From IMG/VR virus record IMGVR_UViG_3300014625_000033: a stretch of 12,579 nt of DNA; one strand, written 5' to 3'. This DNA is from a virus. Taxonomy: Duplodnaviria; Heunggongvirae; Uroviricota; Caudoviricetes. This document shows, piece after piece, positions 642 through 10,029 of the stretch. Numbering within the stretch: position 1 is the stretch's first letter; the number at the start of each line of letters is the position of its first letter. The translations under genes were made by a program, and so were the position numbers. The notes beneath the pieces are model-generated. The model saw only the letters and a list, made by a program, of their open reading frames with translations. It did no database searches and was not told where the DNA came from.

Positions 642-848
642 CTTCATTTTCACTTTCTTAAATCTAACGACAGATGGCTAACATTTAAGTATTGTGAAAT
701 ATTATCAAATGTAATCATCATTGATTTACAAAAGATACATTTTGCCCCGAAAGGATTTCTGTCAGAAACATCAAAAGATGATGTTCTATACTGAGAACCA
801 TGGCAACACGGGCATCTAAAGTGAATATGGTTTGTAATATTTTCTACC

Positions 849-1061
849 TCAAAGTGCCACTACATGAACAGCTGCAGGGCCTTTAGGTCCGTTCTCAATA
901 CCAAATTCGACTTCCTGATTCTCAGTTAACGTTTTGAAATCGTTGCTCTGAATAGCTGAGAAATGCACAAACACATCTTTGCTACCATCTTTCGGCGTGA
1001 TGAAACCAAAACCTTTTTCAGGGTTAAACCATTTCACTAAACCAGTCATTTTGTTAGACAT
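849..1061 (-). CDS. cspI: Cold-shock protein CspI (CspA family, S1-like cold-shock domain), 70 aa
   Basis: Translation [70 protein letters not shown] carries the RNP1/RNP2 motifs (KGFGFI, VFVHF) and matches CspI as I recall it. SD AAGG upstream of the tandem ATGs. Confidence 0.9.
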
Positions 1062-1204
1062 CATTATTACCTTTTGAAGAAGTTAGCCCTTGGGCAGAAT
1101 GGTCCGAAAAAAAATATCAGAAAGAAAAACCAACAAGGAAATCTCAAGAGGTACAAATAATAAAATTATAACAATGACTGCTTCAGATAATTTTGTAACA
1201 AACC

Positions 1205-1241
1205 AGAACACCATTAACGCATGATTAACCAACCATAGCAA
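1205..1241 (-). promoter_or_regulatory. Candidate cspA-type promoter for cspI: -35 TTGCTA (1241..1236), 17-bp spacer, -10 GTTAAT (1218..1213), AT-rich UP-like region upstream; predicts a 5'UTR of about 145 nt
   Basis: Minus-strand read: TTGCTAtggttggttaatcatgcGTTAAT. This resembles the cspA promoter architecture (TTGCAT / CTTAAT), and the predicted leader length matches the long leaders typical of cold-shock genes. Confidence 0.4.
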
Positions 1242-6517: not shown

Positions 6518-7522
6518 TTAGGCCAGCACACCAATTGCCAGCGCGCGATCGATAAATCGAAAAATCAGCTCCAGTTGGGAGCCATACTTCTCTTCAAATG
6601 CCACGGTATCCGTATGCAACTCGTCGTGATGCTTTCTGCACAAAGGCAAAACAAAGAGATCATGTGCTTTGGTTCCCATTCCGCCCTGCCCGTGACCAAT
6701 CAGATGATGCGGATCGTCGGCTGGCATACCGCAGCAAGCACACGGCTGTGTCTTAACCCAGCGTGTGTATTTCTCCTTAACCCACCGGTGACGTTTAGGC
6801 AGCTTCATGAAAGATTCCGGAGACTCTGGATCAACGGTGATGCTTACCACCGTCTTTTCCTGTGATGGGTTTTGTTGCTGGTGGGCGTGAGGCAACGGTG
6901 CAAGATTTTTTGTGCGCTGTTTCAATATGCTGGTGGCGGTCTGCTCTCCCGGTACGATGTCGCTTTCGCGGTACACCGAGCAGATTTTTTCCGCTGGTAA
7001 TCCCAGCGAGCGACGTAATACCGCTTCCGGTAGCGCGTCCGCCAGCTGATTGCGGACCGCCCACCAGGATAATTCAGCCAGAGATAATTCACGCTCCTGC
7101 GTACCGCTTATTGCGTGACCGATGACGTCAATCATCCATGCTGACAGGTTTTGATGAGCAAGTTGCTCGAGTGATTCGGATGTCTGGTCACGCAGCTGGT
7201 TGTCGCAGTGCCAGCACAACACCATTGCGCCGGTACCATATCGGTGAATAACGGTTTCGCTGTGATGATAATCGCCGTGTGGCCACTGGCAGGATTTAAT
7301 ATGGCGCAACAGCCAGTCAGACAATGCACCAGCACCACCAGCAGCACGAATTACCCGTGCGTTACTGAAAAACGGCAGCAATGTTTTGTCTTCCACCAGC
7401 GGCTGGCGAACGGCAGGAACGACCCCGGACGGCAGATTACGCATGCTTTTCGGTTCCGGCTCCACCAGTACCCGGGTATTGTGGAATACCGGCATGGATT
7501 CACGGCCCGGCTTAACGACCAC
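6518..7522 (-). CDS. ydfU: YdfU-like DUF968 protein with C-terminal HNH-like Cys/His motif, 334 aa (GTG at 7522; alternative ATG at 7495)
   Basis: C-terminus [22 protein letters not shown]...[10 protein letters not shown] has CxxC...HH...C..HH spacing typical of HNH nucleases. Position between rem and Q matches K-12 Qin. Confidence 0.75.
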
Positions 7523-7772
7523 CAGCCCGAGTTCCGGTATCCCTGGTGTCGATAGCCTTCCAGCGTTCGAATATCTTCACTCGATTAACGCTAAGCGCTC
7601 GCTGATCAACCGCGCCACCTTCATATGTGACACGCTGAACATCGATGTTCGGGCGCTCTTTCAAAGCCCAGAATGCTTCAGTGATTAATATCGTCGCCTG
7701 CTCCTGTGTCATTCCTGGTCGACATATCCAGGCATCCAGAGCCTCACGAGCCTGTTCAGGAGTGATTTTCAT
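7512..7772 (-). CDS. rem: Rem-like small protein, 86 aa
   Basis: ATG at 7772; translation MKITPEQAREALDAWICRPGMTQEQATILITEAFWALKERPNIDVQRVTYEGG... Synteny with K-12 Qin rem. It overlaps both neighbours (dicC-like 3' end and ydfU 5' end). Confidence 0.6.
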   Translation of the reverse strand: MKITPEQAREALDAWICRPGMTQEQATILITEAFWALKERPNIDVQRVTYEGGAVDQRALSVNRVKIFERWKAIDTRDTGTRAGGR

Positions 7773-7983
7773 TGTTCAACCGCCCCGCCCGCTTCGTCTT
7801 ACGATATTCGTCATAAACTTTGGGATCATACTGAAGCTCCCCGCCAGATGCCTCCTGTAGACGCATCGCGCGACCTTCAGGAACCAGTATCCCCCAAGCA
7901 GCAACACTTGCCAGTCTCACTCCTGCGGCATTGGCAAGCTTTGTTTTGCTGCCAAAAAAAGTAATTGCGTCAACTTTAAGCAT
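7756..7983 (-). CDS. dicC: Cro-like regulator DicC (YdaS/DicC family), 75 aa from ATG at 7983
   Basis: Small ORF divergent from the dicA-like repressor across an operator-containing intergenic region; SD AGAGGGGG; length about 76 aa as for DicC. Identification is by position, size and partial sequence recall. Confidence 0.7.
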   Translation of the reverse strand: MLKVDAITFFGSKTKLANAAGVRLASVAAWGILVPEGRAMRLQEASGGELQYDPKVYDEYRKTKRAGRLNNENHS

Positions 7984-7996
7984 CAAAGCCCCCTCT

Positions 7997-8014
7997 TGTT
8001 AGACTTTTCTAACA
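7997..8014. promoter_or_regulatory. Operator-like palindrome TGTTAGA-cttt-TCTAACA in the dicC/dicA divergent promoter region
   Basis: Perfect 7-bp inverted repeat with 4-bp spacer, 14 nt from the dicC-like start codon; the same half-sites recur downstream of dicA (8507..8526). Confidence 0.55.
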
Positions 8015-8063
8015 TTATTGTGCGCGGGATACCTAAGTCAAGAAAAATTAGAATTACCTAACT

Positions 8064-8471
8064 ATGGATACAAGAACCCTAGGCCAGCGAGTTCTGGCGC
8101 GACGAAAAGAATTACGCTTAACACAACGAGAAGCTGCGCGCCTCGCTGGAGTTGCTCACGTCACAATTTCACAATGGGAAAGAGACGAAACCCAGCCAGT
8201 CGGAAAACGATTGTTTGCTTTAGCGGATGCTCTGAAGTGCTCACCTACATGGCTAATGTTTGGTGACGAAGACAAGGCACCAGTGCCTGCACAAGAACTT
8301 CATGTGGAAACAGAGCTAACTCCCAACCACAAAGAATTGATCGAATTATTCGATGCTCTTCCATCTTCCGAGCAGGAAGCCTTGCTGTCTGAAATGCGCG
8401 CAAGAGTAGAAAACTTCAACAAACTCTTCGAAGAAATGCTTAAAGCGCGTAAAAATAAATCAATAAAATAA
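8064..8471 (+). CDS. dicA: DicA-type prophage repressor (HTH_XRE / cI-like), 135 aa
   Basis: N-terminal HTH (LTQREAARLAGVAHVTISQWER) and the segment KRLFALADALKCSPTWLMFGDEDK...NFNKLFEEMLKAR resemble DicA as I recall it. Weak or absent SD suggests a near-leaderless mRNA, like lambda cI from PRM. Confidence 0.85.
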   Translation: MDTRTLGQRVLARRKELRLTQREAARLAGVAHVTISQWERDETQPVGKRLFALADALKCSPTWLMFGDEDKAPVPAQELHVETELTPNHKELIELFDALPSSEQEALLSEMRARVENFNKLFEEMLKARKNKSIK

Positions 8472-8506
8472 CATTCTTTTCAAGTGATTAGTTGCGCCCA
8501 CTCTTT

Positions 8507-8526
8507 TTGTTAGATCAATCTAACAA
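8507..8526. promoter_or_regulatory. Second operator-like palindrome TTGTTAGA-tcaa-TCTAACAA upstream of the ydfA-dicB operon; degenerate third copy at about 8544..8560 (TGTTAG-N5-TCTAAA)
   Basis: 8-bp perfect inverted repeat with the same half-site as 7997..8014, located between the dicA stop and ydfA. Consistent with repressor control of the dicB operon promoter. Confidence 0.55.
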
Positions 8527-8639
8527 AAAACACTTGCCTCTCGTGTTAGGTTATTCTAAATTACTTTCCATCAAGACACCGCACGGTGTTCTCAGCAAAC
8601 AGTTCCGCGACCCCGGCGTTAAGGGGAAATGAGGTCAGC

Positions 8640-8792
8640 ATGGATACTATCGATCTTGGCAACAGCGAATCTCTGGTATGTGGCGTGTTCCCCAACCAGG
8701 ACGGTACGTTCACCGCGATGACATATACCAAAAGCAAAACGTTTAAAACCGAATCTGGCGCGCGTTGCTGGTTAGCCAGAAACACTGACTGA
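8640..8792 (+). CDS. ydfA: YdfA-like small protein (DUF1391), 50 aa from ATG at 8640
   Basis: MDTIDLGNSESLVCGVFPNQDGTFTAMTYTKSKTFKTESGARCWLARNTD; SD GAGG 5 nt upstream. The ORF-track start at 8586 is GTG and lacks an SD. Confidence 0.7.
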   Translation: MDTIDLGNSESLVCGVFPNQDGTFTAMTYTKSKTFKTESGARCWLARNTD

Positions 8793-9169
8793 TGAGGCTG
8801 ACGATGGAATTTAAAGATTTACCGTCTGATGTACAGAAAACAGCAGCTCATACATTGCATTCTGTGCTGCGAGAAATCGGGAAAGATATTGCAAGCGAGC
8901 CAGCAAAAGATCTGGCCCGGAAAATCAAGACCGCTTTCGTTGAGCTTTGTAATGTTGGCACTGACTCTGAAACTGTCGAGACCAAGACCGTAAGTTCACC
9001 AATATTCTCACTTGAGCCAGGCGTATTATCAGGTGAAATATGCACCGAGATTTCCAGCGAACTGCTTCCGGTAATACGAGAAGCAATTTGCCGTCGCGGT
9101 TTGGATGGAAGTTACGATCATGACGTCCTGCAAGTTCTCAGGACAATGGTGACTTCACTGGGGATTTGA
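8792..9169 (+). CDS. YdfB/YdfC-region hypothetical protein, 125 aa (alternative start ATG 8804 with SD GAGG, 121 aa)
   Basis: Intact ORF; ATG 8792 overlaps the ydfA stop (TGATG). K-12 has two short ORFs (ydfB, ydfC) here; this looks like a single longer reading frame. Confidence 0.55.
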   Translation: MRLTMEFKDLPSDVQKTAAHTLHSVLREIGKDIASEPAKDLARKIKTAFVELCNVGTDSETVETKTVSSPIFSLEPGVLSGEICTEISSELLPVIREAICRRGLDGSYDHDVLQVLRTMVTSLGI

Positions 9170-9613: not shown

Positions 9614-9671
9614 TTTCTGGTGACGTTTGGCGGTATCAGTTTTACTCCGTGACTGCTCTGCCGCCGTTTTT
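9614..9671 (+). ncRNA. dicF: DicF small regulatory RNA (Hfq-dependent, represses ftsZ translation)
   Basis: Sequence TTTCTGGTGACGTTTGGCGGTATCAGTTTTACTCCGTGACTGCTCTGCCGCCGTTTTT matches the E. coli DicF sequence I recall almost base for base, including the terminal hairpin and U-tract. Confidence 0.9.
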
Positions 9672-9840: not shown

Positions 9841-10029
9841 ATGAAAACGTTATTACCAAACGTTAATACGTCTGAAGGTTGTTTTGAAATTGGTGTCACT
9901 ATCAGTAACCCTGTATTTACTGAAGATGCCATTAACAAGAGAAAACAAGAACGGGAGCTATTAAATAAAATATGCATTGTTTCAATGCTGGCTCGTTTAC
10001 GTCTGATGCCAAAAGGATGTGCACAATGA
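9841..10029 (+). CDS. dicB: Cell-division inhibitor DicB, 62 aa
   Basis: MKTLLPNVNTSEGCFEIGVTISNPVFTEDAINKRKQERELLNKICIVSMLARLRLMPKGCAQ matches DicB as I recall it. SD GAGGA 6 nt upstream. The ORF-track extension upstream (from 9736) is leader, not coding. Confidence 0.9.
   Translation: MKTLLPNVNTSEGCFEIGVTISNPVFTEDAINKRKQERELLNKICIVSMLARLRLMPKGCAQ

What the first reader, a model, noticed from the sequence alone, without database searches (positions are those of the whole stretch)
7997..8560. Repeated operator palindrome (TTGTTAGA-N4-TCTAACAA) flanking dicA on both sides
The same inverted repeat occurs in the dicC/dicA divergent promoter region (7997-8014) and again between dicA and ydfA (8507-8526), with a degenerate copy at about 8544-8560. 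This fits a single repressor controlling both the cro-like switch and the dicB operon promoter, i.e. an OR/OL-like organisation. DicA starting almost without a leader is reminiscent of leaderless cI mRNA from PRM.
Basis: seen in the sequence. Interest (0 to 1): 0.5.

Follow-up and report, generated by a model that had tools for sequence, protein, structure and literature searches.

The report
DicA repressor operators flanking dicA
These palindromes are the DNA sites through which a dormant-virus repressor (DicA) and its Cro-like partner (DicC) keep a cell-division-inhibitor operon of E. coli switched off; they are real, but the same layout was already described for the laboratory strain K-12.

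Summary
TGTTAGA-N4-TCTAACA occurs exactly at 7997-8014 and 8508-8525, where about 1e-4 exact copies are expected by chance. A copy with 3 mismatches lies at 8544-8561.

The window is a Qin-type prophage immunity region: a dicC-like gene, a dicA-like gene (57% identical to K-12 DicA), then the ydfA-DicF-dicB operon.

In 10 diverged loci from several enterobacterial genera the same four-site layout recurs. The half-site sequence changes from locus to locus but stays matched between the sites on both sides of dicA (0 of 20,000 permutations reach the observed match). It also tracks the repressor's recognition helix. The weak sites are not decayed copies: one arm of each doubles as a -10 hexamer (PdicB for 8544-8561, PdicA for 8046-8063).

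- Oc = TTGTTAG-N6-CTAACAA binds DicA in vivo.
- Operators at dicBp have been described.
- DicC ChIP-seq binding was inferred on either side of dicA.
- The dicA mRNA has a 3-nt leader.

Verdict: a homologous copy of a known system. Interest is low.

The parts
7756..7983 (-). dicC-like gene (Cro-type regulator, 75 aa)
   Evidence: Pfam P22_Cro, E 4.9e-12. 86% identical to K-12 DicC.
7997..8014 (.). O1, a perfect 7+4+7 palindrome TGTTAGACTTTTCTAACA. It is the homologue of K-12 operator Oc and covers the predicted PdicC start (about 8007) and the last base of its -10.
   Evidence: K-12 Oc binds DicA in vivo (PMC3441716).
8014..8041 (-). PdicC promoter: -35 TTGACT (8041-8036), 16-bp spacer, -10 AATAAT (8019-8014).
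   Evidence: The only sigma-70 match found in 7700-8900, 10 of 12 positions. The GTCAA of the -35 is present in 9 of 10 aligned loci.
8046..8063 (.). Oa-like weak site AATTAGAATTACCTAACT. It overlaps the PdicA -10, the predicted start and abuts the start codon.
   Evidence: (I2). Same position as the predicted K-12 Oa, ATTTAGCATTAGCTAACT. Binding is not shown: in K-12, DicA did not bind Oa in an in vivo assay (PMC3441716).
8049..8054 (+). PdicA -10-like hexamer TAGAAT. Predicted transcription start at about 8061, giving a 3-nt leader.
   Evidence: K-12 start is 3 nt before the ATG. A conserved TAGAAT/TAGCAT/TAAGAT hexamer sits at a fixed distance from the ATG in 10 loci. There is no -35 match, so the promoter is inferred.
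8064..8471 (+). dicA-like repressor gene (135 aa)
   Evidence: Pfam HTH_3, E 1.5e-14. 57% identical to K-12 DicA. The N-terminal domain matches P22 C2 (1ADR, 2R1J) at E 1e-18.
8504..8529 (.). O2, a perfect palindrome with core 8508-8525 TGTTAGATCAATCTAACA and 12-nt arms. It lies just upstream of the PdicB -35.
   Evidence: (I7).
8534..8562 (+). PdicB (dicB-operon promoter): -35 TTGCCT (8534-8539), 17-bp spacer, -10 TAAATT (8557-8562). Predicted start at about 8569-8570.
   Evidence: Assigned by homology to K-12 TTGACC-17-TAATCT. Invariant -35 and -10 columns and a 17-bp spacer read in nine of the ten aligned loci. It falls below the consensus-scan threshold, so it is inferred.
8544..8561 (.). 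O3, weak site TGTTAGGTTATTCTAAAT in the spacer and -10 of PdicB.
   Evidence: The left arm co-varies with O1 while the right arm is fixed as the -10.
8640..8792 (+). ydfA-like first gene of the dicB operon (DUF1391)
   Evidence: Pfam DUF1391, E 4e-27.
9615..9666 (+). DicF small RNA, a downstream target of the promoter
   Evidence: Rfam RF00039, 72.5 bits.
9841..10029 (+). dicB cell-division inhibitor gene
   Evidence: ORF translation reads MKTLLPNVNTSEGCFEIG...; I identify it as DicB from my own recollection of the K-12 DicB sequence. A dicB gene is annotated at the corresponding place in strain H2; no alignment between the window ORF and an annotated DicB was run.

Best explanation
This is the immunity (genetic-switch) region of a Qin-type lambdoid prophage. 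It carries four 18-bp operators of the form TGTTAG-N6-CTAACA. They are read by the dimeric helix-turn-helix repressor encoded between them (DicA-like) and, in all likelihood, also by the divergently encoded Cro-like protein (DicC-like).

O1 (7997-8014) sits on the start site and -10 edge of the strong leftward promoter PdicC. Repressor bound there shuts off dicC and the genes behind it.

Shutting off PdicC also lets the weak, -35-less promoter PdicA fire. Its -10 is TAGAAT at 8049-8054, only 7 bp from the PdicC -35. This could work by direct activation or by clearing RNA polymerase from the overlapping PdicC.

PdicA produces a dicA mRNA with a leader of about 3 nt.

Oa (8046-8063) overlaps the PdicA -10, start site and ATG. 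It is the likely OR3 equivalent: the site through which DicC, or excess DicA, turns dicA down.

On the other side of dicA, the high-affinity O2 (8508-8525) lies just upstream of the PdicB -35. The low-affinity O3 (8544-8561) fills the spacer and -10. Together they block transcription of ydfA-DicF-dicB.

What is shown here: the sites exist, their positions are conserved, and their sequence co-varies with the repressor type.

What is taken from K-12 literature: DicA binds Oc in vivo, DicA represses dicC and dicBp, DicC binds on both sides of dicA, and the dicA leader is 3 nt.

What is inferred: the roles of Oa and O3, cooperativity between O2 and O3, and the exact promoter and start-site positions in this allele.
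For: - Exact palindromes lie at both places, far above chance.
- The gene content is a Qin-type locus: HTH_3 repressor, P22_Cro, DUF1391, DicF and dicB. The region is 100% identical to E. coli strain H2, and related sequence occurs in 3,882 of 5,426 E. coli genomes.
- The layout is conserved in 10 diverged loci from Escherichia, Citrobacter, Enterobacter, Symbiopectobacterium, Rahnella, Superficieibacter and Buttiauxella. The O1 centre lies 57.5-59.5 nt before the ATG, and O2-O3 spacing is 35-36 bp.
- Half-sites co-vary within a locus. O1 vs O2 left arms match at 5.9 of 7 positions against 4.1 when permuted, with 0 of 20,000 permutations reaching the observed value. O1 vs O3 left arms: 17 of 20,000.
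- Operator type tracks recognition-helix type (proteins, sites).
- In the alignment the -10 positions T, A, A and T are invariant across operator types. That fits a right arm of O3 that doubles as the -10, even though that arm still co-varies with O1 (2 of 20,000 permutations).
- A scan of viral contigs for the exact motif gave 120 loci. In 33 of them the site lies next to a dicA-like and dicC-like gene pair, including alleles where DicA is only 52-56% identical.
- Literature support: PMC3441716, PMC10448788, PMC11430063, PMC4681348.
Against: - There are no binding data for this allele.
- In K-12, DicA did not bind the predicted Om and Oa sites in an in vivo reporter assay (data not shown in PMC3441716), so Oa may be a DicC-only site or not an operator at all.
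- The Reg-Seq paper states that the DicA site at dicB is low-evidence and its location unknown (PMC7567609). Its authors also found no active RNA-polymerase site for dicA in their mutagenised window.
- PdicA and PdicB do not reach the consensus-scan threshold.
- O2-O3 spacing of 35-36 bp is about 3.4 helical turns, which does not obviously favour side-by-side cooperative binding.
- O1 is centred near -55 relative to the predicted dicA start. That is not the -42 position lambda CI uses to activate PRM.
Confidence: 0.86

Rival explanations
1. The palindromes are targets of the Cro-like DicC protein only. The DicA-like repressor would act through other sequences, or through only some of these sites.
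For: DicC ChIP-seq in K-12 peaks on both sides of dicA. Its motif is TT(A/C/T)G ... C(G/A/T)AA, which all four sites fit (PMC11430063). DicA did not bind Om or Oa in vivo.
Against: K-12 Oc has the same TTGTTAG/CTAACAA arms, confers DicA-dependent repression, and loses it with a single A-to-C change (PMC3441716). Operator type co-varies with the DicA recognition helix. Sharing operators between the two proteins is the norm in lambdoid switches.
Confidence: 0.07
2. The 8504-8529 palindrome is a transcription terminator hairpin for dicA, and O1 is an RNA structure in the dicC leader, rather than protein-binding DNA.
For: As RNA, 8498-8535 folds at -9.6 kcal/mol (z = -6.8) and 7990-8021 at about -6 kcal/mol.
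Against: The stems are A/U-rich. No U tract follows on either strand, and the terminator scan finds nothing there. The same arms recur at a promoter start site (O1) and, as a non-palindromic copy, inside a promoter spacer (O3). The arms are conserved and co-vary between sites while the 4-nt centre varies freely. That pattern fits a dimeric DNA-binding protein, not a hairpin.
Confidence: 0.03
3. The sites are bound by a host factor (for example YjdC, or H-NS with Cnu, both reported at the dic locus) and not by prophage proteins.
For: YjdC ChIP-qPCR shows enrichment at the dic genes (PMC9283627). CnuK9E with H-NS antagonises DicA at Oc (PMC3441716). The region is AT-rich.
Against: The half-site sequence changes with the prophage's own repressor type in different hosts, and even within E. 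coli. A conserved host factor would not produce that.
Confidence: 0.03
4. Chance repetition of an AT-rich palindrome.
For: With 3 mismatches allowed, 5 of 200 shuffles give 3 or more hits. The weak copies alone are not significant.
Against: Two exact 14-base matches are seen where 9e-5 are expected. Their positions are conserved across genera.
Confidence: 0.01

Closest known systems
E. coli K-12 Qin prophage dicC-dicA-dicBp immunity locus (operators Oc, Om, Oa and the dicBp operators; Bejar et al. 1988 as cited in PMC10448788 and PMC3441716)
   Same: - Same gene order.
- Same operator arms: K-12 Oc TTGTTAG-N6-CTAACAA against the window's TGTTAGA-N4-TCTAACA.
- Same O1-to-ATG distance and an identical 511-bp O1-O2 distance.
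- Same arrangement of operator, -35, operator and -10 at dicBp.
- Same ACTATG start context for the 3-nt-leader dicA mRNA.
   Different: - The repressor is only 57% identical, while DicC is 86% identical.
- The window's O2 is a perfect 24-26-bp palindrome, whereas the K-12 distal dicBp site is degenerate (TGTTAGCTATAGCATACA).
- The window's middle site (Om) has lost its left half.
- Different genes follow ydfA.
Phage lambda OR/OL with CI, Cro and leaderless cI mRNA from PRM
   Same: - Divergent repressor and cro genes.
- Operators overlap both promoters.
- A second operator cluster sits at the promoter on the far side of the repressor gene.
- The maintenance promoter is weak and depends on the repressor.
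- The repressor mRNA is (almost) leaderless.
   Different: - DicA has 135 aa and no LexA-like self-cleavage domain; only HTH_3 is found. In K-12 it is relieved by the antirepressor Rem.
- Operators are 18 bp (7+4+7).
- Site number and spacing differ: 49 bp for O1-Oa and 36 bp for O2-O3, against 23-24 bp in lambda.
- O1 is centred near -55 of PdicA, not -42.
- The O1-O2 distance is about 0.5 kb and not phase-conserved, so lambda-style OR-OL looping is unsupported.
Phage P22 C2 repressor N-terminal domain and its 18-bp operators
   Same: Residues 1-71 of the DicA-like protein match P22 C2 (1ADR, 2R1J) at E 1e-18 and are 45% identical by tblastn. From my own knowledge, not tested here: P22 operators are also 18 bp with 7-bp arms and a non-contacted 4-bp centre.
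   Different: The half-site sequence differs. The C-terminal part (residues about 70-135) is unrelated to the C2 peptidase-type domain.
Gifsy-type short prophage repressors controlled by antirepressors (GfoR, GfhR)
   Same: A short, non-cleavable repressor is removed from its operators by a small antirepressor, as discussed for DicA and Rem in PMC10448788.
   Different: No rem-like gene was examined in this window. Sequence relationship was not tested.

Membership tests
Qin/DicA-type prophage immunity region | A DicA-like repressor of about 135 aa with an N-terminal HTH_3 domain and the conserved C-terminal SPTW..FGDE...RARV.NFN.LFEE region | tested here: met
   HTH_3 at E 1.5e-14. 57% identity over 132 aa to K-12 DicA.
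Qin/DicA-type prophage immunity region | A divergent Cro-like dicC gene | tested here: met
   P22_Cro at E 4.9e-12. 86% identical to K-12 DicC.
Qin/DicA-type prophage immunity region | An Oc-type operator TTGTTAG-N6-CTAACAA between dicC and dicA, on the dicC promoter | tested here: met
   7997-8014 aligns column for column with K-12 Oc. It overlaps the PdicC -10 edge and predicted start.
Qin/DicA-type prophage immunity region | A downstream operon promoter (dicBp) flanked by related operators, followed by ydfA, DicF and dicB | tested here: met
   O2 and O3 bracket a conserved -35/17-bp/-10. DUF1391, DicF RF00039 and the dicB ORF follow.
Qin/DicA-type prophage immunity region | The repressor physically binds the operators and represses both promoters | not testable with these tools
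   Shown for Oc and for repression of dicBp and dicC in K-12 only. Here it is supported indirectly by co-variation.
Qin/DicA-type prophage immunity region | A dicA mRNA with a leader under 10 nt | tested here: inconclusive
   The K-12 start is 3 nt before the ATG. The window keeps the ACTATG context and a TAGAAT hexamer 9 nt before the ATG. No transcript data exist for this allele.
Lambda-type CI/Cro switch (strict sense) | A repressor with a C-terminal LexA/S24-like self-cleaving oligomerisation domain | tested here: not met
   Only HTH families match, the protein is 135 aa, and the PDB hits cover residues 1-71 only.
Lambda-type CI/Cro switch (strict sense) | Three tandem operators about 23-24 bp apart in each of OR and OL | tested here: not met
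   There are two clear sites per region, at 49 bp and 36 bp. A middle site is reduced to one half-site.
Lambda-type CI/Cro switch (strict sense) | The same operator specificity at the promoters on both sides of the repressor gene | tested here: met

The most novel reading that the evidence does not exclude
DicA alleles that are only 52-57% identical keep the same recognition helix (VAHVTISQWE) and the same TGTTAGA-N4-TCTAACA operators. This set includes K-12 Qin, this allele and several viral-contig alleles. Many E. coli genomes carry several dicA-like places, up to 8. Co-resident Qin-type prophages may therefore cross-repress one another, forming a shared immunity network that sets when DicB and DicF are released. 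A second, smaller point: the weak sites are dual-coded with -10 hexamers. This may give DicC its Cro-like preference for Oa and O3, and would explain why DicA alone did not bind Oa in K-12.
Probability: 0.3. Interest if true: 0.35.

Novelty: already known. Interest (0 to 1): 0.15.

Why it matters
DicA holds back DicB and DicF, which block cell division and alter phage receptors. Where and how DicA and DicC bind therefore decides when a dormant prophage becomes toxic or protective.

For K-12 the operator layout, the bistable DicA/DicC switch and the leaderless dicA mRNA are already published, so this window adds no new principle.

Its practical value is small but real. The exact DicA site at dicBp is still described as low-evidence with unknown location (PMC7567609). 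This allele offers a perfect 24-26-bp palindrome plus a clear weak site inside the promoter. The cross-genus co-variation table gives ready-made specificity variants for footprinting and operator-swap experiments.

Tried and rejected
1. De novo choice of the best palindrome upstream of dicA in each locus. It picked spurious repeats at the dicC start, so I replaced it with anchoring on the conserved PdicC -35 and then with alignment columns.
2. DNA looping between O1 and O2. The distance ranges from 497 to 564 bp and the fractional helical phase is not conserved, so there is no support. At this length phase matters little, so looping is not excluded either.
3. Terminator reading of O2. Rejected.
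4. A third full operator (Om) in the window. Only a right half-site (CCTAAG, 8032-8037) next to the PdicC -35 is present, and the left half is GC-rich.
5. Viral-contig locus L033, with four tandem copies of the motif. It is an unrelated AT-rich element with no dicA or dicC nearby.
6. A conserved RNA structure in the dicB-operon leader. The alignment fold gave -0.6 kcal/mol and no meaningful covariation.
7. Literature look-ups for DicA ChIP or EMSA at dicBp found nothing beyond the papers cited. The original Bejar et al. 1988 paper could not be read and is cited second-hand.

Full report
**1. What is in the sequence**

Reading 7600-9000 and searching the pattern confirm two exact copies of TGTTAGA-N4-TCTAACA. 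They lie at 7997-8014 (spacer CTTT) and 8508-8525 (spacer TCAA). A third copy at 8544-8561 (TGTTAGGTTATTCTAAAT) has 3 mismatches.

From base composition, 9e-5 exact copies are expected in 12.6 kb. The pair is therefore not chance.

The second copy is part of a longer perfect palindrome with 12-nt arms, 8504-8515 and 8518-8529 (I7).

It is 8046-8063, AATTAGAATTACCTAACT, 89% complementary to the 8545-8562 copy (I2), and it directly abuts the ATG at 8064.

**2. Genomic context**

- The ORF at 8064-8471 encodes a 135-aa HTH_3 protein. It is 57% identical to K-12 DicA. Its first 71 residues match the P22 C2 repressor N-terminal domain at E 1e-18.
- The divergent ORF at 7983-7756 is a P22_Cro family protein, 86% identical to K-12 DicC.
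- Downstream follow a DUF1391 ydfA-like gene, the DicF RNA at 9615-9666 (Rfam) and dicB at 9841-10029.
- The 1.2-kb core is 100% identical to E. coli strain H2. Related sequence occurs in 3,882 of 5,426 complete E. coli genomes.

The window is thus a Qin-type prophage immunity region, but a different allele from K-12.

**3. Promoter geometry**

- *PdicC.* The only consensus sigma-70 match in 7700-8900 lies on the minus strand: TTGACT (8041-8036), 16 bp, AATAAT (8019-8014). This predicts a dicC start near 8007, in the centre of O1.
- *PdicA.* In K-12 the dicA transcription start is 3 nt before the ATG (PMC4681348 Table S3). The window has the same ACTATG context and a TAGAAT hexamer at 8049-8054. 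This predicts a start at about 8061 and a 3-nt leader. No -35 is recognisable, as also noted for K-12 (PMC3441716).
- *PdicB.* On the other side of dicA, the window's TTGCCT (8534-8539), 17 bp, TAAATT (8557-8562) aligns with K-12's TTGACC-17-TAATCT.
- *Site positions.* O2 ends 8 bp upstream of the PdicB -35. O3 fills the spacer, and its right arm overlaps the -10.
- PdicA and PdicB are below the scan threshold. They are assigned by homology and conservation, so they are inferences.

**4. Comparative test**

A scan of one genome per species with a DicA alignment returned 21 loci. Ten intact, diverged ones were analysed. They come from E. coli K-12, Citrobacter (two), Enterobacter, Symbiopectobacterium, Rahnella, Superficieibacter, Buttiauxella and one metagenome bin (L012).

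All ten show the same layout:

- a strong palindrome centred 57.5-59.5 nt before the dicA ATG;
- the PdicC -35;
- a weak site abutting the ATG;
- after the gene, a site upstream of a conserved -35, and a site 35-36 bp further on, inside a 17-bp spacer that ends in a conserved TAA..T -10.

The half-site differs between loci:

- TGTTAG...CTAACA in the window, K-12, Citrobacter L005, Symbiopectobacterium and Rahnella;
- CTTAGG...CCTAAG in Enterobacter;
- TGTTGAG... in C. braakii and Superficieibacter;
- (C/T)TGAG-N4-CTCAAT in L012 and Buttiauxella;
- TAAC-N4-GTTA in L014 and L017.

Within a locus the half-site is the same at O1, O2 and O3:

| Comparison | Within-locus matches | Permuted matches | Permutations reaching observed |
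|---|---|---|---|
| O1 vs O2, left arm | 5.9 of 7 | 4.1 | 0 of 20,000 |
| O1 vs O3, left arm | 5.6 of 7 | 4.1 | 17 of 20,000 |

The operator types also follow the recognition helix of the encoded repressor:

| Recognition helix | Operator type |
|---|---|
| HVTISQWE | TGTTAG and CTTAGG |
| (H/Y)A(T/S)ISLWE | TGTTGAG |
| (G/D)SSISLWE | TTGAG |
| SSVSVFKWE | TAAC-N4-GTTA |

In the alignment the T, A, A and T positions of the -10 are invariant across all operator types. O3's right arm still co-varies with O1 (2 of 20,000 permutations). This suggests that the 'degenerate' copy is constrained by the -10 hexamer it overlaps, not decaying. The same holds for Oa and the PdicA -10.

**5. Independent check**

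In 33 of them the site lies beside a dicA-like and dicC-like gene pair.

- Fourteen have two exact sites 511 bp apart and are the same allele as the window; L052 also carries this allele but shows a single exact site.
- The rest carry DicA proteins only 52-74% identical. They keep a perfect O1, the same Oa (ATTTAGAAT.ATCTAACT) and recognisable O2 and O3.
- The other hits are unrelated, including a tandem array in L033.

**6. What is already known**

[quoted passage not shown] 1988 and Yun et al. 2012. It also shows that DicA represses dicBp, that the antirepressor Rem relieves this, and that DicA and DicC behave as a bistable switch.
- PMC3441716 shows DicA-dependent, sequence-specific repression through Oc (TTGTTAGTCATAACTAACAA), repression of dicC, and DicA-dependent dicA transcription. 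It reports no binding to the predicted Om and Oa sites.
- PMC4681348 and PMC8794815 list dicA among the few leaderless E. coli mRNAs.

**7. Mechanism proposed**

The DicA-like dimer binds O1 and blocks PdicC at its start site.

With PdicC silenced, the adjacent PdicA can fire. Its -10 lies 7 bp from the PdicC -35. The effect could be direct activation, as Yun et al. proposed, or relief of promoter occlusion, which is my inference. O1 is centred near -55 of PdicA rather than at the lambda -42 position.

Oa, on the PdicA -10, start and ATG, is the likely OR3 equivalent. DicC would use it to shut off dicA; DicC induction lowers dicA 48- to 84-fold in K-12. Excess DicA might use it too.

O2 and O3 repress PdicB. 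O3 does the occluding and O2 provides affinity. Cooperativity between them is inferred only, and 35-36 bp is not an integral number of helical turns.

**8. Rivals**

- A terminator or RNA-hairpin reading of O2 fails. The stem is A/U-rich and no U tract follows. The arms co-vary with sites that cannot be hairpins.
- A host-factor reading fails because the half-site changes with the prophage's own repressor type.
- A DicC-only reading is contradicted by the K-12 Oc data, although it may hold for the weak sites.
- Chance is excluded.

**9. Verdict**

As for novelty, this is a homologous allele of a system described since 1988 and refined in 2012-2024.

I did not find three modest additions in the papers I could read:
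- the cross-genus co-variation of operator type on both sides of dicA;
- the dual coding of the weak sites with -10 hexamers;
- retention of one operator specificity by DicA alleles only about 52-57% identical.

Interest is low (0.15).

Noticed in passing
window 8563-8640: The leader of the ydfA-DicF-dicB operon is conserved in sequence across genera. The conserved elements are CCATCAA at the predicted start, a small palindrome ACACCGCACGGTGT at 8576-8589, CTCAG, and AGTTCCGC. An alignment fold gave no convincing conserved structure (-0.6 kcal/mol), so its role is unknown. An antitermination site, a processing site or a binding site are all possible.
   Followed up: partly
L033 2125-2230: An unrelated AT-rich viral contig carries at least four tandem copies of AATGTTAGAGTAGTCTAACAA, 23-47 bp apart, in a non-coding stretch. 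No dicA-like or dicC-like gene is nearby. It looks like an iteron or operator array of a different system that happens to share the motif.
   Followed up: partly
window 803-1208 (-): An Rfam cspA thermoregulator hit (111 bits) lies upstream of a cold-shock protein gene at 849-1064, as in the cspB/cspF part of Qin-type prophages.
   Followed up: no
window 6518-7772: The YdaT-like ORF next to dicC is only 86 aa (7512-7772) and is followed directly by a DUF968 ydfU-like gene (6518-7522). In strain H2, a full-length YdaT gene and several other genes, among them an AIPR-family gene, hokD and rem, lie between dicC and ydfU. The window's prophage therefore appears to carry a deletion that removes the rem antirepressor region.
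   Followed up: no
L008, L012, L013: Contigs binned as Collinsella, 'Bacillota bacterium' and Veillonella parvula metagenome-assembled genomes carry enterobacterial dicA loci. L008 differs from K-12 DicA at a single residue. These are probably binning contaminants.
   Followed up: no
window 8032-8037: A lone half-site-like CCTAAG abuts the PdicC -35. In other loci the corresponding bases change with the operator type (CTCAAG in the TTGAG-type loci, CTAAAG or CTTTAG in the TGTTGAG-type loci). This suggests a remnant of the middle operator (Om) whose left half is lost in this allele.
   Followed up: partly
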